This document shows, in pieces, positions 1 through 12,972 of a stretch of 12,972 nt of DNA (position 1 is the first letter of the stretch; every line of letters begins with the position of its first letter). This stretch comes from Chlorobiota bacterium (GTDB lineage: Bacteria > Bacteroidota > Ignavibacteria > Kapaibacteriales > UBA2268). A model generated the notes under the pieces. That model searched no databases, was not told the origin of the DNA, and saw only the letters and a program-made list of their open reading frames with translations. Where the stretch lies: contig JBDHXE010000056.1 in assembly GCA_039810525.1 (NCBI GenBank), positions 1-12,972 of the forward strand. Direction: 5' to 3'. Made by a program: the position numbers and the translations under genes.

Positions 1-608
1 TCTTTATTGTCTGTTGATATATCACCCCAATTGCCCGATCTTATGATATATTTATTATCATTTGATATTTTTAAGTCGTAAGCACCCTTAATCATATCTA
101 TACGATTTATCAATTCACCTGAAATTGTATTGTAAACACTTATACCAGATGTATATACACTATTACCCCTTGTTGTTGCCAATAAACTTCCATCTTTATT
201 AAAGCATACATTTGTGCTTGGTTCAAATGTATTTATTAAGGATTTATTATCAACATCATAAACAAAAACACCACCATCAACAGGACTTGCTATTGCAATA
301 AAATTATTGATGCAATCTATATCCAAAATCTTATATCCTGTTTGCGGATATTCATAAACTAATTCACCCGTCTCTGCATCCCATAATCTTGGAACTCCGT
401 CATCACCACCAGAGGCAAGATACCTACCATCTGGTGTAAACTTCACTGCATTGATTGCATTGGGATAGGTAAATTTTGTCCATACGGTATCGGGTAGCTC
501 GTTTGTCTGTCCCCTACCCGTTTGCGTATTACAAATAAGCACTACTACAAGTGCGGCAAGAGTGAAGAGCACGCTGACTCTTCTGTTGTTTTGTTGGTTT
601 TTCAACAT
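1..608 (-). CDS. Partial secreted beta-propeller (WD40-like) protein. The N-terminal ~202 aa are in the window and the C-terminus runs off the left edge. It has a signal peptide that may be a lipoprotein signal.
   Basis: Hand translation of the reverse complement from the ATG at 606-608 to position 1 finds no stop. The N-terminus MLKNQQNNRRVSVLFTLAALVVVLICNTQ is positively charged then hydrophobic, with a Cys. Motifs such as LASGGDDGVPRLWDAETGE and GSLLATTRGNSVY resemble WD40 or beta-propeller blades. AGGAG lies 9 nt upstream of the ATG. Confidence 0.6.
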   Translation of the reverse strand, partial: MLKNQQNNRRVSVLFTLAALVVVLICNTQTGRGQTNELPDTVWTKFTYPNAINAVKFTPDGRYLASGGDDGVPRLWDAETGELVYEYPQTGYKILDIDCINNFIAIASPVDGGVFVYDVDNKSLINTFEPSTNVCFNKDGSLLATTRGNSVYTSGISVYNTISGELINRIDMIKGAYDLKISNDNKYIIRSGNWGDISTDNK

Positions 609-637
609 TATATATACTCCTAAATAAATTATAAATT

Positions 638-659
638 TCGGGGCTTTTTTTGCTCCCGA
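638..659 (-). other. Short hairpin (tcgggg...ctcccga) in the 5' leader of the beta-propeller gene, roughly 30 nt upstream of its AGGAG ribosome-binding site.
   Basis: Inverted repeat TCGGG(G)C / G(C)TCCCGA with a loop of seven T. On the minus strand it sits between the putative promoter region and the SD. Function unknown. Confidence 0.25.
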
Positions 660-984
660 CTAAATACCAATTTTTTGCTATTTAGTTGAAAGCAGAAAAC
701 TTTTTTCATTTTTGTACACTTCTTATATATAATGACAATTAAGTCCTGAAAACTTCTCACTCAAAATTGATATTTTACAATAATAGGTTGATATTTAATT
801 ATTGTTATCAATTTTGTTGATTGTTGATAAGGGTTTGCGGATATGATATTTAAGCTATATAATAATCCTGAGATGATATTCAAAAAGAGAAATGAAGTAA
901 AATTTAATAAGAAATTAGAATTTATTTATCAATAGAATTGCTATTTAGATTTTATCAATTCTCATATTTAAAAGTAGAGTAATC

Positions 985-2271
985 TTATATCGATACCCTT
1001 CTCCATAGTTCAGAGCTAAATTTTGGGTCAATATACCCAGAATACTTTTCTAAATTTGGATAAAATTTTGTGAAGTTTTTTGCACTCATACGGGCATCTT
1101 TGGCTGGATAGACTCTACCCCCGGCATCTGCTACTATTTTATCACATATTTCTAATAAATCAAGAAGATTCTTCCCTATCATTTTAAAGTCAATAGCTAA
1201 TGTAATACCTTCCATTGGAAAGGACATTAGTCCGGGCGATGGAATATTACCAAAAGTCTTTAATACTGTCAAAAATGATGAATATCCCGATTTTGCAATT
1301 AATTTAAATATTTGATTCAAATTGTATAGCGAATTTTGCAATGGTATCACGAATTGATATTGTAGGAATCCTCTTTTGCCATATACCCTATTCCAGTTTA
1401 TAATCCCATCTAATGGATAGAAGAATGATTCAAAATGAGTAAATTGTTTTATATTTCTATGAAATTGTTTATTAAAATATAGATAATTGAAGGTTTTAAC
1501 AGTAAAAGGGTTAATAAAATCAAATTCGATAGGAAAATTCATTGCTTTTTTATCATTTGGTATATATTTTATCTGATGTTTTAGATCTGCAAAATTTCCT
1601 CTTGAATATATACCATAACCTAATTTATTGGTACTTACCCAAGAAACAGTGTAATCATAATCAAGTGATTGCTCATTAATTTCAAAGAACTCTTCAAAAG
1701 AAAAGAATTTAATAAATTCGGCATCAATTATTGGTCCCAGTGATTTGATAAGTTGTATTTCAGCATTTAATATTATACCAGTAAGCCCCAAACCTCCTAT
1801 TGTTGCAATAAATAAATCATTATTTTGAGTATTAGAACAGTGATAAATAATACCATCGCTCCTAAGAAGATCGAAAGATTTGATGTATTTACCAAAAGTT
1901 CCGTATTTATGGTGATTTTTACCGTGTACATCATTAGCAATAGCCCCACCTAATGTAATTAACTTAGTACCAGGTGTAACGGGTAAGAAGTAGCCTCGTG
2001 GTAGGAATGTATCAATAATTTCTTTGAGTGTTACTCCTGATTGAGCTTTTAATATACCACTATTATCATCGAATGCAATAAATTTATTTAAATTTGAGCA
2101 ATCTACCAATATATTATTAGAATTTAGGCAAGAATCTCCATAACTTTTTCCCAATCCATAAGGTAATATCTTTTTATGAATACTTGTAAAATCGAAATTA
2201 TAGTTATTTAATATTCTGATTTCTTGGTTATTTGGTATAGGATATTTTCCAAATGAATTATATTTTTTCAT
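985..2271 (-). CDS. FAD-dependent oxidoreductase of the DprE1 family (decaprenylphosphoryl-beta-D-ribose 2'-oxidase-like).
   Basis: 428 aa. Motifs [51 protein letters not shown] and [13 protein letters not shown] line up closely with mycobacterial DprE1 motifs [48 protein letters not shown] and GGRLYTAKDSR, recalled from memory. The start ATG overlaps the stop of the upstream gene (ATGA). Confidence 0.8.
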   Translation of the reverse strand: [428 protein letters not shown]

Positions 2272-3680
2272 ATTATACCTATTAGCATTATTATACCTAT
2301 CAATAATATGCTTAAATAACTATATTTATCCTTAATACTGAATACTATTGGGTCTTCATTCATCATAGATCTATCTGCCAAAACCCAAACTCTCATATTC
2401 CAATGTAAGAGAATTGGAATAATTAAATATAATATTTTAGGGTTAGAGTATAATTGAGAAATTGTATTGCTATTGATATATAGCACCATTACCAAAACAG
2501 ATATCATACTTGAGCATATACCCATTATTTGAACTATATTCATATCATCAGCTATATATGCTCTCCCAGAAAGTTTTTCATTTTTAGAATTTTTAAGTTC
2601 TGTAAATCTTTTCAGAGCGCCCATAGAAAAGAAAAAGAATAAGGCAAATGCCGCCAACCATTCAGAAATAATAAACCCGCTCGTAGCCGATCCAGCAATT
2701 ATTCTCATCGTATATAATAATGCAAGTGTAATTATATCAACTATATAAATTCTTTTAAGATATATTGAATATAAATATGTAGTAATAAGATATATAAGTA
2801 ATACAATTATAAAGGAAATATTGATGAAGACGCCAATCATAATGCCAATTGTCATCAATAGAATAGTATAAACAAAGGCATCGCTTATTCTGAAATTACC
2901 AGCAGCTAAGGGTCTATTCTTTTTAATTTTATGTTTTCTGTCGCTATTCAAATCCATTAAATCATTGAATATATATATAGATGAAGCCACAAAACTAAAA
3001 GATAAGAATGAAAGTAATAATTGAAAATAAATATTAAATTCAAGGCTATGAGCCAAAAGAGCAGGGAGGAATATTAGCAGATTTTTGACCCATTGGTATA
3101 TTCTAAGCTGTTTGAAAATAATTTTATACTTAGGAGTGTTTGTTCTGCCCCACGTCTCAGCTATATTAGTAATTTCTTTAGCTTTATTTATTAATATTGT
3201 GTTGTCGCTTACGATTAAAGCATTTTGTGCAAAGCTCCAAACTACCAAATCTTTATGACTATCTCCTATATAGTCGTAATTTTTGTCGCCAAATCTACCT
3301 TTTAAATATTCTGCTTTATATTTTGCTGAAAGATTGATTCCATCTTTTGAACCTATTGCTTCATCCAAAAAATTGAATTTTTCTTTATATTTGTCCGCAT
3401 AGTATTGCAAAGAAGCGGTTACTAATAGTATTGTTCTTCCTGACTTTTTTTCATTTATTAGAAAGTTTACAATTTCATCATTTAGAGGCATTGTATCAAT
3501 ATCTATTTGCACTCTATTAAACAATTGTTCTTTGAGGTATAATTTCCCTTTTATGAACCAAATTGGTATCATTAGTAAATAAATTGGATTTGATTTTATC
3601 AAAATGGCCATCGACTCGAACATCATATCCGATTTAATTAAAGTTCCGTCTAAATCTACGCATAGTGGTATATTGGTCAT
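2268..3680 (-). CDS. Bifunctional fusion. The N-terminal domain is a HAD-superfamily phosphatase. The C-terminal domain is a UbiA-family polyprenyl-phosphate phosphoribosyltransferase (decaprenyl-phosphate 5-phosphoribosyltransferase, Rv3806c-like).
   Basis: 470 aa. N-terminal HAD motifs are DLDGTL (motif I), LLVTAS (motif II) and K...GDSHKD (motifs III/IV). The C-terminal ~290 aa are multi-TM and carry the Asp-rich UbiA motif NDLMDLNSDRKH (compare Rv3806c NDVADVEADRAH). It is coupled by TAATG with glf upstream and ATGA with the DprE1-like gene downstream. Confidence 0.8.
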   Translation of the reverse strand: MTNIPLCVDLDGTLIKSDMMFESMAILIKSNPIYLLMIPIWFIKGKLYLKEQLFNRVQIDIDTMPLNDEIVNFLINEKKSGRTILLVTASLQYYADKYKEKFNFLDEAIGSKDGINLSAKYKAEYLKGRFGDKNYDYIGDSHKDLVVWSFAQNALIVSDNTILINKAKEITNIAETWGRTNTPKYKIIFKQLRIYQWVKNLLIFLPALLAHSLEFNIYFQLLLSFLSFSFVASSIYIFNDLMDLNSDRKHKIKKNRPLAAGNFRISDAFVYTILLMTIGIMIGVFINISFIIVLLIYLITTYLYSIYLKRIYIVDIITLALLYTMRIIAGSATSGFIISEWLAAFALFFFFSMGALKRFTELKNSKNEKLSGRAYIADDMNIVQIMGICSSMISVLVMVLYINSNTISQLYSNPKILYLIIPILLHWNMRVWVLADRSMMNEDPIVFSIKDKYSYLSILLIGIIMLIGII

Positions 3681-4807
3681 TATCTTATTTTAGCTATTCG
3701 TTTTTCAAATACTTGTAGAGCTATACCTACTATTTGATCCATATTATAATATTTATATTCTGCTAAACGCCCACAGAATATTACAGAATCACCTAATTGT
3801 TCAGCTTCTTGTTTGTATTTATTATACAATTCATTATTTTCTGCTTTTGGTATAGGATAGTAAGGTTCATTAATATTTTTAATGAATTTCTGAGGATATT
3901 CAAATGCTATTGAAGTCTTTCGGTGTTGCTGTTGGCTCAAATATTTAAATTCTGTAATTCTTGTATAGTCATAATTGTTAGGATAATTTAATTGCCCTAC
4001 CTCTTGATAATATTCTGTATCGATTGTTTCGAAAGCAAAACTTAAACTTCTATAAGGTAGCTCTCCATAGATATAATTAAAATATTCATCTATTGGACCT
4101 GTGAATATTAATTTATCAAAGTTTACCCCATCTTTAACATCATTATATTCTGCATTAAGCAATAAATGAATATTCTTATGATTTAAAATATTATTAAACA
4201 TAGCTGTGTAGCCATTTGTAGGTAGTCCTTGATATGTATCTTGAAAATAGCGGTCATCTTTACTAATATATACTGGTACTCTTGAAGATACAGAACTATC
4301 TAATTCTTCTGGTTTTACTCCCCACTGTTTAATATTATATCCATTGAATACATTCTTATAAATATAATTAGCAAGGAAATTGAGATCATCGTCTTTAACT
4401 TCTAACATTTTTAGAATCGGAATTTTTAATCCAAAGCCATAATTTTCAATCAATTTTTTTTCTAACTTATTTGCATATTTTGTAGAGAACAATTGCGGTA
4501 TACTATTAAGATTGAAAGGTATAGGTACATTTTTCCCTTCTATTACGGCTTTAACTTTATGGATATATGTATTCCAATTTGTAAATTGCGATAGATAATC
4601 CCATACTTTTTTTGAATAAGTATGTAGAATATGAGGTCCAAATTTATGGACTAATATGCCATCATCATTATAATAATCATACGCATTGCCAGCTATATGA
4701 TTCCTTCTATCCACTATGAGACATTTTTTGTCCAATTGTGTAGCTATTCTTTCTGCTAAAACAGCACCAGCATAACCTGCGCCAATTATTAAATAATCAT
4801 ATTTCAT
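3680..4807 (-). CDS. glf: UDP-galactopyranose mutase (UDP-Galp to UDP-Galf).
   Basis: 375 aa. The N-terminus MKYDYLIIGAGYAGAVLAERIA...RNHIAGNAY is a Rossmann FAD-binding fold. Matching regions include ...HKFGPHILHT, YFQDTYQGLPTNGYT, TGPIDEYFNYIYGELPYRSL and the C-terminal FCGRLAEYKYYNMDQ. The E. coli and Klebsiella Glf equivalents are GGRLAEYKYYDMHQ and YRSLKFE. Confidence 0.93.
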   Translation of the reverse strand: MKYDYLIIGAGYAGAVLAERIATQLDKKCLIVDRRNHIAGNAYDYYNDDGILVHKFGPHILHTYSKKVWDYLSQFTNWNTYIHKVKAVIEGKNVPIPFNLNSIPQLFSTKYANKLEKKLIENYGFGLKIPILKMLEVKDDDLNFLANYIYKNVFNGYNIKQWGVKPEELDSSVSSRVPVYISKDDRYFQDTYQGLPTNGYTAMFNNILNHKNIHLLLNAEYNDVKDGVNFDKLIFTGPIDEYFNYIYGELPYRSLSFAFETIDTEYYQEVGQLNYPNNYDYTRITEFKYLSQQQHRKTSIAFEYPQKFIKNINEPYYPIPKAENNELYNKYKQEAEQLGDSVIFCGRLAEYKYYNMDQIVGIALQVFEKRIAKIR

Positions 4808-6216
4808 TTTCTTATTATTGTTTTAATTTCATTTATATCTATAATTTTAAAAGCAAGTGATATACCAAAATATATTATAGAACTAAAAATAATACTAAAT
4901 ATTGGGTTGATAGTATCTTTAAGGAAATAAAATGGTATAAATGATATTATAGTAATTGGTATAAATTTTAGTATTTCCAATAAATAGATTCTACTATGAG
5001 TATTTCTAAAAATATACATCATACTAATAAGTACACCAAACTCGCATAATATAGTGGCAAATGCAGAACCATACATTCCATATTTTGGTATCAAAATTAT
5101 ATTAAGTATAGCATTAATAATTAATCCTATAATATTAGCTTTTACTACTTTTTTCTCTTCTTTCCAAGAAATTAATGGAGTAAAATATATTGAAATCATA
5201 TATTGAATTAAAACAGTAAAAGCTAAATATTGTAATATTATATTAGAATTAGTATATTTATCTCCTAATAAATCGACAGCTAAATCTGCTAAGAAAAATA
5301 AATATCCAAAGGCTAAATATCCTACAAGTAATTGAAGTTTAGCAAATTTTGAAATTAATCTATCTCTATCTTCAAACGTTTTGCGTTGTGATATTTGAGG
5401 GAAAAATGCACCTTGTAATATTATTGATGGTAAAATTGCGAAGTAAATTACTTGATGTGCGGCACCATAGATACCTGTTTCAAAATCACCTCTCATTAAT
5501 CCTAATAATGTAATATCAATATTATTATATAGTGTGGATATTAGGAATATTAAGCCAATTGAGAAAGCTTCTTTAGAAATATTAATCCATAGTTTGAAAT
5601 CAAAATTAAATGAGAATTTATTATATCTACGGAAGTAATATATGTACATTACAATTGAATTAATTAGCATAGACAAGCTAATGATAATGACAGCTGTTGT
5701 CAAATCTTCACTACTTTTCACCAATAAGATAATACCAATAAAATTAAGTAGGTATATTCCAATCGTTCTAAAAGCTATTACTTCCATTTTCTCAATTGCT
5801 TGAAAAAACCAATTTAACATAATAGCATTGCTAAATAATGTAATACTATATATATATATAATGTGTTGATTATATGCTAATTCTGGTTTGTTTATAATCA
5901 GTATTTGCACTACAATGAATAGCAAAATAAAGGATATTAATGATATCGTGATTCTTATACTTGTTATCAAATCTACGTATTTTTTAATAAGTGATTTGTC
6001 TTTAGCAATTTCTCTGATACCTACTTGGTCGTAGCCCAATGCCACTAATATTAGGAAATATTGTACTAATGATTTAGCAAAATTCAGAATACCATTGCTT
6101 TCTGGACCAATTGTTCTTATAAGATAAATAGTATACACAAAAGCAAGTCCTTTGCTTGCAATTTCAGCTAAGGATAGAGAGAATATATTCTTAATTATAT
6201 TTTTGGCCACACTCAT
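4804..6216 (-). CDS. Wzx-like polysaccharide or oligosaccharide flippase of the MOP superfamily ('polysaccharide biosynthesis protein').
   Basis: 470 aa. Highly hydrophobic with about 12-14 predicted TM segments rich in I/L/F. The N-terminus ...LSLAEIASKGLAFVYTIYLIRTIGPESNGILNFAKSL is typical of Wzx and RfbX proteins. The start lies 4 nt after the GH57 stop, and the stop overlaps the glf start. Confidence 0.75.
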   Translation of the reverse strand: MSVAKNIIKNIFSLSLAEIASKGLAFVYTIYLIRTIGPESNGILNFAKSLVQYFLILVALGYDQVGIREIAKDKSLIKKYVDLITSIRITISLISFILLFIVVQILIINKPELAYNQHIIYIYSITLFSNAIMLNWFFQAIEKMEVIAFRTIGIYLLNFIGIILLVKSSEDLTTAVIIISLSMLINSIVMYIYYFRRYNKFSFNFDFKLWINISKEAFSIGLIFLISTLYNNIDITLLGLMRGDFETGIYGAAHQVIYFAILPSIILQGAFFPQISQRKTFEDRDRLISKFAKLQLLVGYLAFGYLFFLADLAVDLLGDKYTNSNIILQYLAFTVLIQYMISIYFTPLISWKEEKKVVKANIIGLIINAILNIILIPKYGMYGSAFATILCEFGVLISMMYIFRNTHSRIYLLEILKFIPITIISFIPFYFLKDTINPIFSIIFSSIIYFGISLAFKIIDINEIKTIIRK

Positions 6217-6220
6217 TTGA

Positions 6221-7948
6221 TTAAGAATATACTTCTCGCCAATCTTTTAAATTTAATTCTGGGAAAATTGAATTTCTCTTTTCAGTATCTTCTAAATACT
6301 TTAGTTCAGACTTATTAAAAGTATTATTATTAATATAATTTTCAAAAAAATCACATAATTTATTAAAATCAGAATGATGATAAGAAAATCGCATTTCTGA
6401 GTAGTCTTTTGCTGACTGTGTATATATTAGAAATTGCCAATCTGATGACTGTAATAGCATCAATTCTCTCAATGCTTGTTTCAATATTCTAATAGCCGTA
6501 TTATCTAAATTATCATTAAAGTATTTAGTGTATAAGTTATTAAATCTAAGTTCATCATTATAGATACACTCCCAAGTCCATTTATTCTCTTCGTTGCTCC
6601 ATACAGTATGATTATTATCAACTCCCCAAGAACCTTCTGGTATAGATATTACTTCTTTGGGTTGAATCTGTATATACTGTTCTGATGCTGTTACCATATT
6701 CAAATATGGTGAATGATATAATCCTCTGATTACAGCTCTTAGGAACTCTGGTCCTTCAAACCACCAATGCCCAAACAATTCTGTATCGAATGGGGTAACA
6801 ACAGTACTAAATTTGCCTGTATGATTATTATAATAATTCGAGGTATTTTCTAAATTATGAATAAAATGATTAGCTTGTTTGTCAATTTTGTCGTAAGTCC
6901 AATCGGGATGATACAAAGTTTTGTACATCATATCTGCTTTGCTATCTGTAACTCTCCAATAACGGTGCATAGAAGGAAAATGCTTTTTATGAAAATCTAA
7001 ATAATCTGGCTCGGCAGGATAACCAATTTGTCCACTCCATACCTGCATAGAAAGATCGTGATGACGTGTAAATATAGCCGCAGTACCATATTCTACTTTT
7101 TCAGAAGATGCTACTTCGTACATACAAAGTGGGTTCTTATCAAAATTCCAATTTTCAAATTGGAAATTAGGTGAATTGATGGATATAAAATTTTCCTTAA
7201 TATTATCATTAAATTTACCGAGTGGAATCGAGCGTTTTAATAAATCTTCATCAGTTACAAAATATTGTATGCCGTTAGCAGCAAGAATCTGTTCTACTCC
7301 ACTTCTTAATCTCTTACTATGAAATGGTTCTATTGGTATATAGGTTTGCCATTCATAAGATGGACGATAAGCACATTCAGGCAACCAAATACCTTTTGGA
7401 TATCTATTAAAGTATTTTTTATAATTTTTGACTGCTGTGCTAACTTGCAGATTAATGCTTTGGTCGTATCCTAACAAAGGGAAGTATCCATGAGTAGCTC
7501 CACAAGTCATTACTTCAATAGCACCTTTGTCTTGAAGAGTCTTCAATCCATTGATAATAGATGAATTATACTTTTTTAAAAAATCTTCTTTTTTATTAGT
7601 GTACCATTCTTCCCAGAATTGAGTTAGCCAAATATGATGCGGTTCATAACCCCAATTAGTAAAGTTTCTCCTATCTTCTTGAGCACCTTTAATTTTCTCA
7701 TCACAATACTCTACAAATATTTTTTTAAAATCTTTATGCTCTAATTGTTCGCATAGAATCGGAGATATATCCAATGTAGCTTTGGGTAAAATACCTTCGC
7801 TCAGACAATCGTTAAATATATTAAGTAGCGGAATATAGCACTCAGCAACTGCTTCGCTTAACCAATCTACACCATGAGGCCATTTACCATGGTGAAGCAC
7901 CCAAGGTAGATGTGTATGCAAAATTAAGACATAATTACCGGAATGCAT
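6221..7948 (-). CDS. Glycoside hydrolase family 57 protein, 1,4-alpha-glucan branching enzyme-like (GH57 catalytic domain plus C-terminal DUF1957-type region).
   Basis: The N-terminal motifs YVLILHTHLPWVLHHGKWPHG, IWLPECAYRP (candidate catalytic Glu) and TPFDTELFGHWWFEGPEFL are signatures of GH57 branching enzymes. The ORF track begins at the TTG at 7960. An ATG at 7946-7948, preceded by GGGAG with a 6-nt spacer, is the more likely start (protein MHSGNYVLILHTHLP...). Confidence 0.82.
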   Translation of the reverse strand: MHSGNYVLILHTHLPWVLHHGKWPHGVDWLSEAVAECYIPLLNIFNDCLSEGILPKATLDISPILCEQLEHKDFKKIFVEYCDEKIKGAQEDRRNFTNWGYEPHHIWLTQFWEEWYTNKKEDFLKKYNSSIINGLKTLQDKGAIEVMTCGATHGYFPLLGYDQSINLQVSTAVKNYKKYFNRYPKGIWLPECAYRPSYEWQTYIPIEPFHSKRLRSGVEQILAANGIQYFVTDEDLLKRSIPLGKFNDNIKENFISINSPNFQFENWNFDKNPLCMYEVASSEKVEYGTAAIFTRHHDLSMQVWSGQIGYPAEPDYLDFHKKHFPSMHRYWRVTDSKADMMYKTLYHPDWTYDKIDKQANHFIHNLENTSNYYNNHTGKFSTVVTPFDTELFGHWWFEGPEFLRAVIRGLYHSPYLNMVTASEQYIQIQPKEVISIPEGSWGVDNNHTVWSNEENKWTWECIYNDELRFNNLYTKYFNDNLDNTAIRILKQALRELMLLQSSDWQFLIYTQSAKDYSEMRFSYHHSDFNKLCDFFENYINNNTFNKSELKYLEDTEKRNSIFPELNLKDWREVYS

Positions 7949-7962
7949 AATTACTCCCAAAA

Positions 7963-8172: not shown

Positions 8173-9708
8173 TTATTTCGAACTGTCATCATTAGTTTTT
8201 TTAAAATTGCTAAGTATATCTACTCCTGTTGCTTTTTCTATAACTTCGTTGAGAGATATTACTGAGTTAGGCAATTGTGATATTACTTTATTCAATGGCG
8301 AACTGTCATTATTATTACCAGAATCTATTACAGTCATTTTATCAATTTTAACATCTTTTACCACATTGGTCAATTGGCTTATTATTTCTGGGAGCATATT
8401 TAGCATAAATACTTTATCGCCATTTCCTTGTGCTGATAGATATGCATCTATTTTTTTTCTTAAAACCTCTATGTGAGCTTCTCCATCAGCAATAATAGAT
8501 GCGGCTTCTCCTTTGGCTTCTAATTCTAATGCCTCTTTTTTGGCTTTTGCTGGTTCTATAACATCAGCCATTAATTTTTGTTTTTGCAATTCTATTCTTT
8601 GTCTTTCTAACTCTTGTTCATATTTTACTTTTGCTAATTGTCCAGCTACTTCAGCTTCTTTTTCTTTAACTATGGCTTGTTTCTCCAAATCAGCTTTTGT
8701 CATTCTGTAATTATTCTTCTCTATTTCAATAGTTTTGTCAGCGTTAGCTCGTGATATTTTTATTGATTTATCAGTATCAATTTGTGCATTCTGAATATTT
8801 TGTAGAGCAATTGCTTTCGCTTTTTCTGCTGTTTCGTGTGCTTGGGCATCTGCTTCTTCGGCTGCTGCTTTTTTGGTAGCTGTTGCAATCAAAATTTGCT
8901 GTTCGGATAGAATTTTTGCTCTTTCTATTTCTTGATTAGCTATAGCTTTTGCTTTCTCAATTTCTTGGTTCGAAATTGCTTTCGCTTTTTCGATTTCTTG
9001 ATTTGCATTAGCTTTTGCTTTTTCTGCTCTTTCCAAGGCAGTGGCCTCCGCTTCTTGTGCATCAGCCATCTTCTCAGCTTCTATTTTTTTGGCTCTTGAG
9101 ATCACTTCGGCAGTTTTGCCTCTACCAATTGAATTTAAATAGTCATTATCATCAGAAATATTCGTTATTTTCAAAGTATCTAATTGTAATCCAAGTTTAT
9201 TCAAATCCAAATCTGCTTCATCCATCAAAGTTTCAGCAAATTTCAATCTATCTTCATTTACTTCTTCTGGTGTAAGCGAAGCTAATACGCCTCGAAGATT
9301 ACCTTCGAGAGTATCTTTTGCAATTGCATGAATATCGCTTGCACTACGTGTTAGGAATCTTTCTACTGCATTACCAAACGAAGGTTCGGTAGATGCAATT
9401 TTAATATTGGCTATTGCTTCTACTTTAAGAGGGATACCACCTTTAGAGTAAGCATTTATTACTTCTAATTCTATTGGTATAGTCTCGAGCGACATACGTG
9501 TAGCTTTTTCTATAAGAGGCATTTTGATAGTTCTACCACCACGTATAGTTCTATAACCAATTTCTTCGCCGTTTGCTAACTTTCTTCTTCTACCAGATAA
9601 AATAATTACTTCATTTGGGTGCGCAATTAACAGCATTTTGCTAATCAAAGTAAATATTACAATCAACGACACAGCTCCTACACCTGCGAAAAACAAAATC
9701 ATTTCCAT
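8173..9708 (-). CDS. Flotillin (SPFH or Band-7 domain membrane-microdomain scaffold protein, FloT/YuaG type).
   Basis: 511 aa. It has an N-terminal TM helix, then an SPFH-like region (HPNEVIILSGRRR..., GGIPLKVEAIANIKI). A long Glu/Ala-rich coiled coil carries EA-type repeats (ANQEIEKAKAI x3). It sits directly downstream of an NfeD-like gene, as in B. subtilis yuaF-yuaG. AGGAGAAATT precedes the ATG. Confidence 0.88.
   Translation of the reverse strand: MEMILFFAGVGAVSLIVIFTLISKMLLIAHPNEVIILSGRRRKLANGEEIGYRTIRGGRTIKMPLIEKATRMSLETIPIELEVINAYSKGGIPLKVEAIANIKIASTEPSFGNAVERFLTRSASDIHAIAKDTLEGNLRGVLASLTPEEVNEDRLKFAETLMDEADLDLNKLGLQLDTLKITNISDDNDYLNSIGRGKTAEVISRAKKIEAEKMADAQEAEATALERAEKAKANANQEIEKAKAISNQEIEKAKAIANQEIERAKILSEQQILIATATKKAAAEEADAQAHETAEKAKAIALQNIQNAQIDTDKSIKISRANADKTIEIEKNNYRMTKADLEKQAIVKEKEAEVAGQLAKVKYEQELERQRIELQKQKLMADVIEPAKAKKEALELEAKGEAASIIADGEAHIEVLRKKIDAYLSAQGNGDKVFMLNMLPEIISQLTNVVKDVKIDKMTVIDSGNNNDSSPLNKVISQLPNSVISLNEVIEKATGVDILSNFKKTNDDSSK
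8905..9040 (-). repeat. In-frame 33-bp imperfect tandem repeat (about 3 copies) inside the flotillin coiled-coil region.
   Basis: Nucleotide units gcttttgctttctcaatttcttggttcgaaatt, gctttcgctttttcgatttcttgatttgcatt and agcttttgctttttctgctctttcc encode (A)NQEIEKAKAI, SNQEIEKAKAI and ANQEIERAKIL. Confidence 0.5.
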
Positions 9709-9726
9709 AATTTCTCCTATATTAAA

Positions 9727-10344
9727 TTATAAATCGTATTTATCAACAATAGCTATATTATCATCAAATTCTATTAAAAGTATTTTGTCGCCTTTTCTTA
9801 GTTCTTCTATTTTGCTAATTGAACTTAGTTTTGCGATAATTTCTATAGTGGAGCCTGATGTTTCTATCAAAATCTTTCCTTTTCTATCTTTGCTTAAAGG
9901 TAATGTTACTATACCTTTTGAACCTATAAGCTCTGTATATTCTTTTGTTTTCCCAGATTCACTTTTTTTTAGGTAATTCATAAACGAATATCCAAAAATT
10001 GATGCAAATAGTCCTATAATTATAGAACTAAACAATTTAGTAGAATCACTAAAACTAAAAAGATCTCCCAGAGTACCACTTAATCCAAAAAACGTTATAA
10101 AATAGAGAATGTTTCTAAAACTAAAAATTTTACCAATTTCATATAACTTAGTTATATCACTGCTACCGATTGATTTTGCTGATATATCTTTATTGATTTC
10201 AATATGATGTGAAGTATCTAAATGATCTAAGTCTATATGATGAACATCTACTGTATCTACATCGTGTGCAGTACCTCCTGTAAATAATGAAAATAATACT
10301 AAAATACCGCCAAATATCAAGCAAGCTAAGTAAATAATTGACAT
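9727..10344 (-). CDS. NfeD-like membrane protein (short YuaF-type form), the partner of flotillin.
   Basis: 205 aa. Hydrophobic N-terminal TM segments are followed by a C-terminal OB-fold-like segment (GKILIETSGSTIEIIAKLSSISKIEELRKGDKILLIEFDDNIAIV). It lies 18 nt upstream of the flotillin start. Between the TM helices there is an unusual His/Asp-rich stretch, AHDVDTVDVHHIDLDHLDTSHH. Confidence 0.72.
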   Translation of the reverse strand: MSIIYLACLIFGGILVLFSLFTGGTAHDVDTVDVHHIDLDHLDTSHHIEINKDISAKSIGSSDITKLYEIGKIFSFRNILYFITFFGLSGTLGDLFSFSDSTKLFSSIIIGLFASIFGYSFMNYLKKSESGKTKEYTELIGSKGIVTLPLSKDRKGKILIETSGSTIEIIAKLSSISKIEELRKGDKILLIEFDDNIAIVDKYDL

Positions 10345-10450: not shown

Positions 10451-11449
10451 ATGTATATTGAAAATGAGCTGTTTTATCAGAAAAGGGTATTTCAATTAAT
10501 ATCTGACCCAACTAAAGTATATAACACTAAGTCTGGCAAAAGATTACAATTCTTATCGCCCGGCAAGCTAAGTTCTATAGGACCCGATTTTAAGGATATT
10601 GCATTATTAATAAATGGATATTTAATAATTGGAGATTGTGAATTCCATATCAAAAGTAGTGATTGGATAGATCATAGACATGAATTGGATAGTAAGTATA
10701 GTGATGTAATTCTTCATATTGTATTAGAAGATATTATAGATATTAAAGGAAATTTTGAGACTTTGATTATTAGTGAAGACAAGTTAGAAGCAATTAATAC
10801 TACTCAAACTATTGAGACTAACAATTTCACCGAGATTGAAGAGATACAAAACTTCGCCTTATTAAGGCTATTACGCAAAACTTCTAATGCCAAAAAGTTA
10901 TTAAATAATAATTCGATTATTGATTCACTTCAAATACTTTCGCAAGAATTTATAACGAGATACGAGCATAGGCGGCATAGGCCAAAATATACATCAAGTA
11001 AGCTAAGTGAGATTATAGATGCTATTTCTAATTCTACAATTGTTAATTATTTATATGATATTGCTAACAACGAGAACATATCTGTATCTGATATAATGCA
11101 AAGTTTGATTAAAAATAAGATTTATGATGAAGGACCACATTTACGTAGGGAATTAGTTTTGAATGCAGTGATACCTCTACTATTGGCTTTGGCAAATGAT
11201 AATAATAGGATCAATTTATTTGTATGGTATTGGTCTACTCCAGCACTGAATAATTACGGTATATTAAATAGAAAATTCCCTAACAATCCTCAAAATTTCT
11301 TATGGCAGCAGCAAGGTATGTTAGAATATATCGCAGAGTATGGCAATAGATCTAACCTAATTGCCGAATCTTTCCGTGAATATGGCTTTTTGGAAGTATT
11401 GAGTTTTTATAAAAACGGAAGATTACCTTTAGAATTCTTTGAGAATTAA
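10451..11449 (+). CDS. DUF2851-family protein of unknown function.
   Basis: 332 aa. The N-terminal region ...RLQFLSPGKLSSIGPDFKDIALLINGYLIIGDCEFHIKSSDWIDHRHELDSKYSDVILHIVLED matches the conserved DUF2851 core (G-D-hEIH-hKSSDW-xHgH-x-D-x-YnNVILHVV) as I remember it. The family is mainly in Bacteroidota and the wider FCB group. Confidence 0.75.
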   Translation: MYIENELFYQKRVFQLISDPTKVYNTKSGKRLQFLSPGKLSSIGPDFKDIALLINGYLIIGDCEFHIKSSDWIDHRHELDSKYSDVILHIVLEDIIDIKGNFETLIISEDKLEAINTTQTIETNNFTEIEEIQNFALLRLLRKTSNAKKLLNNNSIIDSLQILSQEFITRYEHRRHRPKYTSSKLSEIIDAISNSTIVNYLYDIANNENISVSDIMQSLIKNKIYDEGPHLRRELVLNAVIPLLLALANDNNRINLFVWYWSTPALNNYGILNRKFPNNPQNFLWQQQGMLEYIAEYGNRSNLIAESFREYGFLEVLSFYKNGRLPLEFFEN

Positions 11450-12426
11450 CTTATTAGTCTTGATATTTCTTCTGCTACCCTTAATGCTTCTGATGCCTCA
11501 TTAGCATTTACTGCTATTGGAGTATTATCATTAATAGCAGACACAAAGGCAAATTGTTCTTCTGCAATAGCATTAATTTTATCAACATTGGGTTTCTCAA
11601 AATATATATTTCGATTTTTGATACCAGTCTCTATAGATCCAAGCATCATAGCAGGCACACCTTCGGTTGAATGCAGCCCTTCGTCGTATATTTTATATAC
11701 TTCTACATTATGCTCTTGAAAATCTAATGATATATATGCATCTTTCTGGAATATCCTCATTTTCCTCATAGGATTAGCAGTGATACGCGATGCTGTGATA
11801 TTAGCTATAAGCCCAGTCTCAAATTTAATTCTAGCATTTGCAATATCAAAGCTATCACTAATTACAGCTACTCCACTCGCGTCTATTTTTTCAATTTTGG
11901 ACTGTGCTAACCAAAGAATAATATCTATATCATGAATCATCAAATCATGAATTACTGATACATCAGTAGCACGTGGTTTGAATTGACTGAGTCTATGTGC
12001 TTCAATAAACATTGGCTTATCAATATAGGGTCTTATTGCTTTGATTACTGGATTGAATCTTTCTACATGCCCTACTTGAATTAACACATTATTTTTTTTG
12101 GCAGATTCTATTAAGTCTAATGATTCGTTATAAGTATTGGTAATAGGCTTTTCTATCAGGCAATGTTTCCCATTCTCTATAAATTTCTTTGCTATTGCCC
12201 AATGATTGATAGTAGGAACTGCAATTGTAGCAGCATCAGAATTTTCAATTGCTTCTTCGATAGAATGATATGATTTGCAGTTATATTCATTAGCTATTTT
12301 GTCTGCTTTTGCAGTATCAATATCGTATATTCCTATTAATTCTACATTAGGATTTGATGACCATAGTTTAGTATGTATGCTACCAAGATGTCCAATTCCA
12401 ACTACTATTACCTTTAATTTTTTCAT
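11446..12426 (-). CDS. Gfo/Idh/MocA-family NAD(P)-dependent oxidoreductase.
   Basis: 326 aa. It has an N-terminal Rossmann motif KVIVVGIGHLGSIHT and the family-diagnostic EKP motif (CLIEKPIT). Its stop codon overlaps the DUF2851 stop (TTAA at 11446-11449, convergent). Confidence 0.85.
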   Translation of the reverse strand: MKKLKVIVVGIGHLGSIHTKLWSSNPNVELIGIYDIDTAKADKIANEYNCKSYHSIEEAIENSDAATIAVPTINHWAIAKKFIENGKHCLIEKPITNTYNESLDLIESAKKNNVLIQVGHVERFNPVIKAIRPYIDKPMFIEAHRLSQFKPRATDVSVIHDLMIHDIDIILWLAQSKIEKIDASGVAVISDSFDIANARIKFETGLIANITASRITANPMRKMRIFQKDAYISLDFQEHNVEVYKIYDEGLHSTEGVPAMMLGSIETGIKNRNIYFEKPNVDKINAIAEEQFAFVSAINDNTPIAVNANEASEALRVAEEISRLIS

Positions 12427-12473: not shown

Positions 12474-12972
12474 TTAAGATTTTGGATGTGCTTTTTTATA
12501 TTGTTCTTTTAATCGCTCTATAGATATATGAGTATAAATTTGTGTAGTATTGAGAGATGAATGTCCTAACATTTCGCCTACACTCCTTATATCGGCTCCA
12601 TTATCTAATAAATGAGTAGCAAAAGTATGCCTAAGAGTATGCGGACTCTTTTTGCTGACTTCAGTTTTGCCAATCATTCTGTGTTTTACAATTTTATAAG
12701 CCATTGCTGGACTAATTCTTTTAATTTTTTTATCTATAAACAAAGGGTATTCTTTTTCACTTTTAAACAGAGACATAATTATTTTTTTATATGCTATATA
12801 CTTTTCTATAAAAGTGTTTGTAATCGGTACTAATCTTTCTTTATTACCTTTACCTAATATCTTGATTAATTTCTCGTTTAAATTGATACTATTAATATTA
12901 AGCTGGAGAGCTTCACTAATTCTCAGCCCTGACCCATATAGCAGCTCTAAAAGTAAAGCATCTCTCCAATCC
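12474..12972 (-). CDS. Partial tyrosine site-specific recombinase of the XerC/XerD family. The C-terminal catalytic domain is present and the N-terminus runs off the right edge.
   Basis: The ORF track lists only the 100 aa from an internal Met. Hand translation upstream of it stays open to 12972 (...DWRDALLLELLYGSGLRISEALQLNINSINLNEKLIKILGKGNKERLVPI...). Catalytic signatures are GLRISE (Arg I), HTLRHTFATHLL (His-x-x-Arg), LGHSSLNTTQIYTH (His, Tyr) and the XerD-like tail ERLKEQYKKAHPK. Confidence 0.8.
   Translation of the reverse strand, partial: DWRDALLLELLYGSGLRISEALQLNINSINLNEKLIKILGKGNKERLVPITNTFIEKYIAYKKIIMSLFKSEKEYPLFIDKKIKRISPAMAYKIVKHRMIGKTEVSKKSPHTLRHTFATHLLDNGADIRSVGEMLGHSSLNTTQIYTHISIERLKEQYKKAHPKS

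What the first reader, a model, noticed from the sequence alone, without database searches (positions are those of the whole stretch)
985..2271. DprE1-like oxidase with no DprE2 reductase partner in the operon
Epimerising polyprenyl-P-ribose to polyprenyl-P-arabinose needs DprE1 for FAD-dependent 2'-oxidation and then the NADH-dependent SDR DprE2 for reduction. The operon ends with the DprE1 homologue and is followed by a terminator-like hairpin and a 376-bp intergenic region. No SDR gene is present.

The only other oxidoreductase in the window is the Gfo/Idh/MocA gene at 11446..12426, which is in a separate transcription unit. Either the reductase is encoded elsewhere, a non-homologous reductase is used, or the pathway stops at a 2'-keto or ribosyl donor. 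The last option would be a novel glycan building block.

Position 387 of mycobacterial DprE1 is Cys, the residue that benzothiazinones modify. Whether this protein aligns Cys or Ser/Ala there would be informative.
Basis: inference. Interest (0 to 1): 0.55.

Follow-up and report, generated by a model that had tools for sequence, protein, structure and literature searches.

The report
DprE1-type oxidase lacking neighbouring DprE2 reductase
A Kapabacteria sugar-donor operon encodes the oxidase half of the ribose-to-arabinose lipid-sugar epimerase but not the reductase half that sits right next to it in about 95% of other bacteria surveyed, and the reductase is most likely encoded elsewhere in the genome.

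Summary
ORF 985-2271 (-) is a full-length DprE1 homologue (36% identical to M. tuberculosis DprE1, PDB E=1e-67). Catalytic Lys418 is kept as Lys391, and the benzothiazinone-target Cys387 is Ala359. It closes a tightly overlapping operon: GH57, Wzx-type flippase, Glf, HAD-UbiA (polyprenyl-P 5-phosphoribosyltransferase/phosphatase fusion), DprE1-like. A 376-bp spacer and a WD40 gene follow.

No DprE2-like SDR or remnant lies in the window. None lies in the flanks of six other independently assembled lineages with the same operon. These form one clade of low-GC Kapabacteria.

Of 78 assessable DprE1-like loci from many phyla, 73 have a ~245-aa DprE2-like SDR immediately downstream and one has it 5.5 kb upstream. 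The sister Kapabacteria lineage also has it downstream. So this clade lost the linkage once, and it also carries Wzx and Glf.

The oxidase keeps the family's conserved core. Another Kapabacteria lineage has a stand-alone DprE2-like gene beside secA, and M. tuberculosis has an unlinked redundant reductase (Rv2073c). An unlinked reductase is therefore the most likely answer, but no whole genome of the clade could be searched. A real reductase-free pathway remains possible but unlikely. Interest is modest.

The parts
985..2271 (-). DprE1-like FAD-dependent polyprenyl-phospho-ribose 2'-oxidase (428 aa). Lys391 corresponds to Mtb Lys418 and Ala359 to Mtb Cys387.
   Evidence: PF01565 at 75 bits. NF053785 DprE1 at 329.7 bits, below the cutoff of 500. 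PDB DprE1 at E=1e-67 to 1e-68 with residue mapping. Ala359 and Lys391 are invariant in 33 relatives.
2268..3680 (-). Bifunctional HAD phosphatase (residues ~1-150, motif D9-L-D11-G-T) fused to a UbiA-type polyprenyl-phosphate 5-phosphoribosyltransferase (N239-DLMDLNSD). It is predicted to make polyprenyl-P-ribofuranose from PRPP.
   Evidence: NF006088 PRK08238 at 544 bits, above the cutoff of 351. The DPPR synthase models score 102-137 bits, below cutoff. PF01040 UbiA and a weak PF12710 HAD hit. Motifs. A characterised analogue, ORF15 of Citrobacter youngae, is described in PMC11127046.
3680..4807 (-). UDP-galactopyranose mutase (Glf), which supplies UDP-Galf.
   Evidence: TIGR00031 at 426 bits, above the cutoff of 304. 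PF03275 at E=1e-74.
4804..6216 (-). Wzx/MOP-superfamily flippase (470 aa). It is a candidate exporter of the lipid-linked pentofuranose donor or of a lipid-linked repeat unit.
   Evidence: PF01943 Polysacc_synt at 131 bits. It is present in every SDR-less locus that reaches that far upstream and absent from the SDR-linked sister loci L103 and L013.
6221..7960 (-). GH57 alpha-glucan branching enzyme. It ends 4 nt before the flippase gene and is a conserved upstream neighbour, probably co-transcribed. It is probably not part of the pentofuranose pathway.
   Evidence: PF03065 and PF09210. It lies next to the HAD-UbiA/DprE1 genes in the SDR-linked loci L013 and L062 as well.
609..984 (.). 376-bp spacer downstream of the DprE1-like gene, in the position where relatives carry dprE2. 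It holds no coding remnant of an SDR.
   Evidence: tblastn gave no hit in the spacer. The HMM search found nothing. No Rfam family matched. The fold z-score is -3.5, with hairpins including 639-660.
1..608 (-). Start of a secreted WD40-repeat protein. It is the next gene downstream and is not a reductase.
   Evidence: PF00400 WD40 at E=2e-11 and a signal-peptide-like N-terminus.
11446..12426 (-). Gfo/Idh/MocA oxidoreductase, considered as a surrogate reductase. It lies about 9 kb upstream of the DprE1-like gene, separated from the operon by an opposite-strand gene and a flotillin/NfeD pair, and is not consistently linked to the operon.
   Evidence: PF01408. Nearest NCBIfam model is UDP-GlcNAc 3-dehydrogenase at 183 bits, below the cutoff of 450. 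It is present near the operon in L004 but not in L100 or L086.

Best explanation
The gene encodes the oxidase half of a polyprenyl-phospho-ribose 2'-epimerase in a Kapabacteria envelope-glycan operon.

Proposed pathway:
1. The HAD-UbiA fusion transfers ribose-5-P from PRPP to a polyprenyl phosphate and removes the 5-phosphate (inferred from family membership and from the characterised Citrobacter ORF15).
2. The DprE1-like flavoenzyme oxidises the 2'-OH to the 2'-keto intermediate (inferred from 36% identity to Mtb DprE1 and conserved catalytic residues).
3. A reductase encoded outside this locus reduces the keto group to give polyprenyl-P-arabinofuranose. It is most likely a PRK07102/DprE2-type SDR (inferred, not shown).
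4. The co-operonic Wzx-type flippase exports a lipid-linked intermediate, and Glf supplies UDP-Galf for the same glycan (inferred from co-operonic position).

What is shown is that this clade lost the otherwise near-universal dprE1-dprE2 adjacency once, and that the same clade carries Wzx and Glf between GH57 and HAD-UbiA. Ala at the Cys387 position predicts insensitivity to covalent benzothiazinones.
For: Identity of the enzymes.

Adjacency norm: 73 of 78 assessable DprE1-like loci from many phyla carry a ~245-aa SDR (280-400 bits to the SDR HMM) immediately downstream on the same strand. One more has it 5.5 kb upstream. These SDRs pass NF005489 PRK07102 (291 > 267 bits), with the DprE2 model NF053786 as second-best hit at 175-180 bits.

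Clade-wide absence in the locus: the window, L004, L099, L100-102, L107 and L086/L091 come from seven assemblies. All have (GH57-Wzx-)Glf-HADUbiA-DprE1 and no SDR in up to 10 kb. The clade is monophyletic, and its sister L103/L116 has HADUbiA-DprE1-SDR.

The oxidase is still constrained: it is intact in all seven lineages at 53-72% identity. All six clade members compared keep 88 of the 110 columns that are >=90% conserved in 79 SDR-linked homologues. Only 7 positions show clade-specific changes, mostly conservative.

Unlinked reductases occur: a stand-alone DprE2-like SDR next to secA is conserved in another Kapabacteria lineage. Rv2073c is redundant with DprE2 in M. tuberculosis (PMC13530172).

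DprE1 and DprE2 are both required for D-Araf synthesis in P. aeruginosa (bioRxiv 10.1101/2020.04.19.049825). DprE1/E2 homologues accompany PPPRS systems that add Araf (PMC11127046).
Against: No reductase gene has actually been found for any member of this clade.
- Two homologue searches with Kapabacteria DprE2-like queries (top 120 hits each) returned nothing attributable to the annotated relative GCA_035445085.1 or to contigs of the clade. This is only a weak negative, because thousands of hits lay below the listing cut-off.
- The secA-linked SDR lineage has higher GC (34-35% against 29-31%) and shares no samples with the clade. It is a precedent, not a demonstration.
- No GT-C arabinosyltransferase was seen in any flank, so the end use of the donor is unknown.
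Confidence: 0.62

Rival explanations
1. A reductase-free pathway. The clade really lacks any DprE2 function, and the 2'-keto-pentofuranosyl lipid made by the DprE1-like oxidase is itself the product. It would be flipped by the co-operonic Wzx-type protein and used directly, or converted by different chemistry, giving a new glycan building block.
For: The loss of the SDR from the locus is ancient and stable across seven lineages, while the oxidase stays intact. The same clade carries a flippase and Glf. No DprE2-like protein attributable to the clade appeared in two searches. One unrelated locus (L015) has an aminotransferase where the SDR normally sits, so alternative fates of the keto intermediate are conceivable.
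Against: No whole genome of the clade was searched. The oxidase shows no active-site remodelling. Unlinked reductases are documented. Glycans containing 2-keto-pentofuranose are not known to me (own knowledge), and the keto intermediate is chemically labile (own knowledge).
Confidence: 0.1
2. A non-homologous reductase replaces DprE2. One candidate is the Gfo/Idh/MocA oxidoreductase at 11446-12426. Another is an unrecognised enzyme.
For: Members of the Gfo/Idh/MocA family act on sugar keto/hydroxyl groups. The nearest model is UDP-GlcNAc 3-dehydrogenase. The gene is kept near the operon in the window and in L004.
Against: The gene lies about 9 kb upstream of the DprE1-like gene. A plus-strand DUF2851 gene and a flotillin/NfeD pair separate it from the operon. 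It is absent from the flanks of L100 and L086. The genes just downstream of dprE1 differ between lineages (WD40, PorE-like, PBP-like/M28, an unknown secreted protein, PIN), and none has a nucleotide-binding signature.
Confidence: 0.1
3. The DprE1-like enzyme has shifted to another substrate or role, and no arabinose donor is made. For example, it might oxidise a different lipid-linked furanose connected with Galf metabolism.
For: The score is below the NCBIfam DprE1 equivalog cutoff (329.7 against 500). The clade carries Glf. There are seven clade-specific substitutions.
Against: The gene remains translationally coupled to the PRPP-dependent HAD-UbiA synthase, as in SDR-linked relatives. The below-cutoff score is shared with every non-actinobacterial homologue that does have a DprE2 neighbour. 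The catalytic residues are unchanged.
Confidence: 0.06
4. Assembly or binning artefact: the SDR gene is missing because the contig is broken or chimeric just after the DprE1-like gene.
For: Two Logan contigs end about 190 bp after the gene.
Against: The window itself continues 984 bp further into a WD40 gene. Six other independent assemblies, including contigs of 362 kb and 21 kb, read through the junction without an SDR.
Confidence: 0.01

Closest known systems
Mycobacterial DprE1/DprE2 (Rv3790/Rv3791) decaprenyl-phospho-ribose 2'-epimerase with DPPR synthase Rv3806c
   Same: The oxidase has the VAO-type FAD fold and full-length homology (36% identity). The catalytic Lys418, His132, Lys134, Gln334/336 and Tyr60 equivalents are kept. 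It is genomically coupled to a UbiA-type PRPP:polyprenyl-P phosphoribosyltransferase.
   Different: No adjacent DprE2. Ala replaces Cys387. The phosphatase is a fused HAD domain rather than a separate PAP2 enzyme (Rv3807c). The host is a low-GC Kapabacteria lineage and the lipid carrier is unknown. Scores are below the NCBIfam equivalog cutoffs.
Three-component periplasmic pentofuranose glycosylation systems (Kelly et al., PNAS 2024, PMC11127046): PRP-PPPRS fusion, MATE-type flippase and a GT-C, with auxiliary epimerases (ORF13 for Xylf, DprE1/E2 for Araf)
   Same: It has a HAD(PRP)-UbiA(PPPRS) fusion with intact DxD and NDxxDxxxD motifs, a MOP-superfamily flippase in the same operon, and a DprE1 homologue as the auxiliary epimerase component.
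   Different: No GT-C glycosyltransferase and no DprE2 lie in the locus. The flippase matches Pfam Polysacc_synt (Wzx type), and its relation to the Citrobacter MATE protein was not tested. Glf is embedded in the operon.
HADUbiA-DprE1-SDR (PRK08238 / DprE1-like / PRK07102) cassette of diverse Gram-negative and Chloroflexota genomes, including sister Kapabacteria (L103, L116, L013)
   Same: The first two genes are orthologous at 44-59% identity and in the same order, with the same overlapping gene junctions. In L013 and L062 the same GH57 gene lies upstream.
   Different: The third gene (the SDR) is missing, and Wzx plus Glf lie between GH57 and HAD-UbiA.
Pseudomonas aeruginosa Pa5196/PA7 D-Araf pilin glycosylation cluster (PsPA7_6245-6249)
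   Same: It is a non-actinobacterial use of DPPR synthase, DprE1 and DprE2 homologues to make a lipid-linked D-Araf donor. Experiments show that both DprE1 and DprE2 are required.
   Different: In that cluster dprE2 is adjacent to dprE1 and a GtrA-like protein is the putative flippase. Here there is no dprE2 and a Wzx-type protein instead.
Rv2073c of M. tuberculosis (unlinked SDR redundant with DprE2)
   Same: It is a precedent for the reductase step being supplied by a gene far from dprE1 (PMC13530172).
   Different: In M. tuberculosis it is a back-up beside a linked dprE2. Here an unlinked enzyme would be the only reductase, and none has been identified.

Membership tests
DprE1 (decaprenylphosphoryl-beta-D-ribose 2'-oxidase, NF053785) | VAO-type FAD-binding domain and full-length similarity to characterised DprE1 | tested here: met
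   PF01565 at 75.5 bits. Residues 33-426 align to profile positions 38-447 of 449 at E=3.5e-98. PDB DprE1 chains match at E=1e-67 to 1e-68.
DprE1 (decaprenylphosphoryl-beta-D-ribose 2'-oxidase, NF053785) | Score at or above the curated equivalog cutoff (500 bits) | tested here: not met
   329.7 bits. The model is tuned to Actinobacteria. In my judgement the protein belongs to the wider non-actinobacterial DprE1-like family.
DprE1 (decaprenylphosphoryl-beta-D-ribose 2'-oxidase, NF053785) | Catalytic Lys418 and active-site His132, Lys134, Gln334, Gln336, Tyr60 | tested here: met
   The equivalents are Lys391, His116, Lys118, Gln304, Gln306 and Tyr44. All are invariant in 33 relatives.
DprE1 (decaprenylphosphoryl-beta-D-ribose 2'-oxidase, NF053785) | Cys387, the site of covalent benzothiazinone attack (a drug-sensitivity marker, not needed for catalysis) | tested here: not met
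   Ala359, invariant in the 33-sequence alignment. Natural Ala/Ser variants in some mycobacteria are active (own knowledge).
DprE1 (decaprenylphosphoryl-beta-D-ribose 2'-oxidase, NF053785) | Partner DprE2 reductase encoded adjacent | tested here: not met
   No SDR in the window or in up to 10 kb of flank in seven lineages. It is present in 74 of 78 assessable loci elsewhere, immediately downstream in 73 of them.
DprE1 (decaprenylphosphoryl-beta-D-ribose 2'-oxidase, NF053785) | Oxidation of polyprenyl-P-ribose to the 2'-keto product | not testable with these tools
   Needs an enzyme assay with farnesyl- or undecaprenyl-P-ribose.
PRP-PPPRS fusion (HAD phosphatase + UbiA polyprenyl-P 5-phosphoribosyltransferase; NF006088 PRK08238) | Score above the curated cutoff over the full length | tested here: met
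   544 bits against a cutoff of 351, covering residues 2-469.
PRP-PPPRS fusion (HAD phosphatase + UbiA polyprenyl-P 5-phosphoribosyltransferase; NF006088 PRK08238) | HAD motif I (DxDxT) and the UbiA Asp-rich motif NDxxDxxxD | tested here: met
   D9-L-D-G-T and N239-DLMDLNSD.
Three-component pentofuranose glycosylation system (PMC11127046) | Dedicated flippase encoded with the synthase | tested here: inconclusive
   A MOP-superfamily Polysacc_synt/Wzx protein is co-operonic. The prototype flippase is described as MATE-family, and no direct comparison was made.
Three-component pentofuranose glycosylation system (PMC11127046) | GT-C glycosyltransferase that uses the lipid-linked pentofuranose | tested here: not met
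   No multi-spanning GT-C-like ORF was found in the window or in the examined flanks of relatives. It may be encoded elsewhere.
UDP-galactopyranose mutase (TIGR00031) | Score above the equivalog cutoff | tested here: met
   426.1 bits against a cutoff of 303.75.

The most novel reading that the evidence does not exclude
A whole clade of low-GC Kapabacteria has dispensed with the DprE2 reductase. Its polyprenyl-P-ribose 2'-oxidase would then feed a 2'-keto-pentofuranosyl lipid, or a derivative made by non-SDR chemistry, to the co-operonic flippase. The result would be an undescribed keto-pentofuranose-containing or otherwise modified Galf-associated envelope glycan. Alternatively, the DprE1-like enzyme completes the epimerisation with an unrelated partner.
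Probability: 0.1. Interest if true: 0.7.

Novelty: new member of a known kind. Interest (0 to 1): 0.3.

Why it matters
If the reductase is simply unlinked, this is an ordinary gene-order variant of the widespread PPPRS/DprE1/DprE2 route to lipid-linked D-arabinofuranose. Its value is that it extends the route, combined with Galf supply, to Kapabacteria, hinting at an arabinofuranose- and galactofuranose-containing envelope glycan outside the Actinobacteria. If the clade truly has no DprE2-type reductase, it would be a natural experiment on what a DprE1 product can be used for without DprE2. That would bear on the enzymology of a major tuberculosis drug target pair and on the diversity of bacterial pentofuranose glycans.

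Tried and rejected
1. I looked for a decayed dprE2 in the 376-bp spacer and in all clade loci. tblastn gave nothing better than E=2.4, and no hit lay next to the DprE1-like gene. The HMM search found nothing.
2. I tried to extend the window through exact-protein contig look-ups. The 36.9-kb Logan contig ends just after the DprE1-like gene, so it adds nothing downstream.
3. I tried to find an unlinked DprE2 of the clade through two homologue searches with Kapabacteria SDR queries, followed by contig and accession look-ups. These revealed a secA-linked stand-alone SDR lineage. Its GC content, samples and accession ranges do not tie it to the SDR-less clade.
4. I followed a near-match in contig length (P0038 at 3722 bp, P0128 at 3724 bp) as a possible clade member with an SDR. 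It turned out to be an L103-type locus.
5. The metagenome scan for close relatives returned only 13 loci. Two of them (L086/L091) extended the SDR-less clade.
6. I scanned the genes flanking the operon in relatives for hidden reductases. They are WD40, PorE-like, PBP-like, M28 peptidase, PIN and secreted unknowns.
7. I checked for fused extra domains. All four operon proteins have normal lengths.
8. The Rfam scan of the window found no match.
9. I rejected the assembly-artefact idea and Gfo/Idh/MocA as a consistent partner. The reasons are given under the rival explanations.
10. The XerC ORF at 12474-12776 looked truncated in the ORF list but simply runs off the window end.
Full report
**What is in the window**

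The window is 29.6% G+C, and 1-kb windows run 25-36%. It carries a run of minus-strand genes whose ends overlap or nearly abut:
- GH57 glucan branching enzyme, 6221-7960
- Wzx-type flippase, 4804-6216
- UDP-galactopyranose mutase (Glf), 3680-4807
- HAD-UbiA fusion, 2268-3680
- the flagged ORF, 985-2271

Downstream lie a 376-bp spacer (609-984) and a gene for a signal-peptide WD40 protein that runs off the left end. Upstream of the run lie a flotillin/NfeD pair, a plus-strand DUF2851 gene, a Gfo/Idh/MocA oxidoreductase and a XerC gene that runs off the right end. The best named relatives are Candidatus Kapabacteria MAGs.

**Checking the observation**

The ORF is a real, full-length DprE1 homologue.
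- It has the PF01565 FAD-binding domain.
- The NCBIfam DprE1 equivalog is by far the best model, at 329.7 bits and E=3.5e-98 across 38-447 of 449 positions. It is below the curated 500-bit cutoff.
- M. smegmatis and M. tuberculosis DprE1 structures match at E=1e-68 and 1e-67.

I mapped the HMMER alignment onto M. tuberculosis numbering. Identity is 36% over 386 aligned residues.

| M. tuberculosis DprE1 | Window protein |
|---|---|
| Lys418 (catalytic) | Lys391 |
| Cys387 (benzothiazinone site) | Ala359 |
| His132 | His116 |
| Lys134 | Lys118 |
| Tyr60 | Tyr44 |
| Gln334 / Gln336 | Gln304 / Gln306 |
| Lys367 | Lys338 |
| Tyr415 | Tyr388 |
| Asn385 | Thr357 |
| Tyr314 | Phe284 |

Ala359 and Lys391 are invariant in a 33-sequence alignment of relatives.

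No SDR gene is in the window.
- An HMM built from 24 SDRs found next to DprE1-like genes gives no hit at E<=1e-3.
- tblastn with two Kapabacteria DprE2-like proteins gives nothing better than E=5 in the window. The spacer is therefore not a decayed dprE2.

The 'terminator-like hairpin' is the weakest part of the observation.
- The consensus scan finds no minus-strand terminator in the spacer.
- The fold shows only an AT-rich hairpin after the stop codon and a GC-rich hairpin at 639-660, close to the next gene's ribosome-binding site.
- No Rfam family matches.

**The partner genes**

The HAD-UbiA protein passes the NCBIfam PRK08238 cutoff (544 against 351 bits). The decaprenyl-phosphate phosphoribosyltransferase models are its next-best hits. 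It has an intact HAD motif I (D9-L-D-G-T) and the UbiA NDxxDxxxD motif.

Kelly et al. (PMC11127046) characterised a protein of this domain composition, Citrobacter ORF15. They showed it to be a polyprenyl-phosphate 5-phosphoribosyltransferase with a fused phosphoribose phosphatase that makes lipid-P-ribofuranose. They describe three-component systems made of the synthase, a MATE-type flippase and a GT-C. Auxiliary epimerases in these systems set the pentose: an SDR for Xylf, and DprE1/DprE2 homologues for Araf.

The window's operon fits that picture for the synthase, a MOP-superfamily flippase and the oxidase half of the epimerase. Glf, scoring above the TIGR00031 cutoff, adds a UDP-Galf supply. 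No GT-C is present in the window or in relatives' flanks.

**How unusual is the missing reductase?**

I scanned one genome per species for relatives, using an alignment of 33 homologues. This returned 80 loci at 44-54% identity from Proteobacteria, Chloroflexota, Acidobacteriota, Bdellovibrionota, Myxococcota and others.
- 73 loci have a ~245-aa SDR directly downstream on the same strand, scoring 280-400 bits to the SDR HMM.
- One locus (L019) has the SDR 5.5 kb upstream.
- Two loci end at the contig edge and cannot be assessed.
- Four assessable loci (L007, L010, L015, L071) have none.

So 74 of 78 assessable loci carry the SDR, about 95%. These SDRs pass the NCBIfam PRK07102 cutoff, and the DprE2 model is their second-best hit. 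JGI annotates many of them as the DprE2 reductase. Adjacency is therefore the strong norm.

**The absence is a clade trait**

Exact-protein look-ups and the metagenome scan recovered six further lineages with the same operon and no SDR in up to 10 kb of flank:
- L004 (GCA_035445085.1, a 362-kb contig)
- L099
- L100-102
- L107 (GCA_975759235.1)
- the more distant pair L086/L091

Their DprE1-like proteins are 68-72% identical to the window's, or 53% for L086. Their G+C is 25-31%.

What follows the oxidase gene differs between lineages: WD40, PorE-like, PBP-like plus M28 peptidase, a secreted unknown, or PIN. None looks like a nucleotide-dependent reductase.

In a neighbour-joining tree the six form one clade. 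Its sister (L103/L104 and L116, Kapabacteria, 57-58% identical) has HADUbiA-DprE1-SDR. L013 (Kapaibacterium) and L062 (Bacteroidota) have GH57-HADUbiA-DprE1-SDR. The simplest history is a single event at the base of the clade that removed dprE2 from the locus. The same clade carries Wzx and Glf between GH57 and HAD-UbiA. This rules out an assembly artefact.

**Is the oxidase still doing the same job?**

All seven lineages keep intact HAD-UbiA and DprE1-like genes. I compared them with 79 SDR-linked homologues, in which 110 alignment columns are at least 90% conserved.
- 88 of these columns are retained by all six clade members compared.
- Only seven show a clade-specific change: W7F, R42K, W94Y, D213S/N, P251D, Y280F and L376C. 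Most are conservative, and none matches an M. tuberculosis active-site residue mapped.

No extra domain is fused to any operon protein. This argues for unchanged 2'-oxidase chemistry, and therefore for a continuing need to deal with the 2'-keto product.

**Where is the reductase?**

Indirect evidence favours an unlinked gene.
- Another Kapabacteria lineage (GCA_026418625.1 and relatives, L106 and L108-L115) conserves a stand-alone DprE2-like SDR beside secA, with no DprE1-like gene nearby. It scores 337-349 bits to the SDR HMM and is 62-67% identical to DprE1-adjacent Ignavibacteria SDRs.
- In M. tuberculosis the unlinked SDR Rv2073c is redundant with DprE2 (PMC13530172).

Some evidence points the other way.
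- Two homologue searches with Kapabacteria SDR queries listed no protein attributable to the annotated clade genome GCA_035445085.1 or to the clade's contigs.
- This is weak, because only the top 120 of more than 8000 hits were listed.
- The secA-linked lineage differs in G+C (34-35%) and shares no samples with the clade.

It is missing from the L100 and L086 flanks, so it is a poor candidate.

**Verdict**

| Explanation | Confidence |
|---|---|
| Ordinary pathway to lipid-linked D-Araf, with the reductase step supplied from elsewhere in the genome | about 0.6 |
| Non-homologous reductase | about 0.1 |
| Truly reductase-free pathway with a keto or otherwise modified product | about 0.1 |
| Changed substrate | about 0.06 |

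The system is a new member of a known kind (PPPRS/DprE1-type pentofuranose donor synthesis) in an unusual host. It has an unusual gene order and an embedded Glf. A single HMM search of two or three genomes of the clade would settle the question.

Noticed in passing
L015:9938-13254 (Gammaproteobacteria MAG CAVOGN010000001.1): Here the DprE1-like gene is followed by a class-III aminotransferase (PF00202, 279 bits) instead of the usual SDR, and the HAD-UbiA gene lies 8 kb away on the other strand. A keto-to-amino conversion of the lipid-linked pentose is conceivable.
   Followed up: no
L106:6001-6738; also L108-L115: A stand-alone DprE2-like SDR (the P0135 group, 81-87% identical to one another) is conserved beside secA and a UDP-glucose dehydrogenase gene in a Kapabacteria lineage of 34-35% G+C. 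No DprE1-like gene lies within 6 kb. No DprE1-like protein from that assembly appears among the top 120 DprE1 hits.
   Followed up: partly
window 609-984: The spacer after the DprE1-like gene folds better than shuffled controls (z = -3.5). It contains a long AT-rich inverted repeat (~770-830) and a GC-rich hairpin at 639-660, immediately upstream of the WD40 gene's ribosome-binding site. No Rfam family matches.
   Followed up: partly
window 8173-10344: A flotillin (SPFH/Band 7) and NfeD-like gene pair sits between DUF2851 and GH57 in this lineage. It is absent from the same position in the relative L004, so it is a lineage-specific insertion or deletion next to the operon.
   Followed up: no
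L010:281-1742: The HAD-UbiA gene is split into two adjacent ORFs (184 and 301 aa) in a MAG that also lacks the SDR. This may be a frameshift or a decaying locus.
   Followed up: no
L086:4316-11299 compared with window 985-7960: Between the window and the distant clade member L086, GH57 and Glf are 72-75% identical, but HAD-UbiA and the DprE1-like protein are only 48% and 53% identical. The two pentose-pathway genes therefore evolve faster than their operon neighbours, or L086 is a long branch for those genes.
   Followed up: partly
L099:3194-3604 and L100:11411-12403: A secreted protein of unknown function, with no Pfam or NCBIfam match, lies downstream of the DprE1-like gene in two lineages of the clade. 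It is 330 aa in L100, and L099 has a 136-aa homologous ORF. It has no nucleotide-binding motif.
   Followed up: partly
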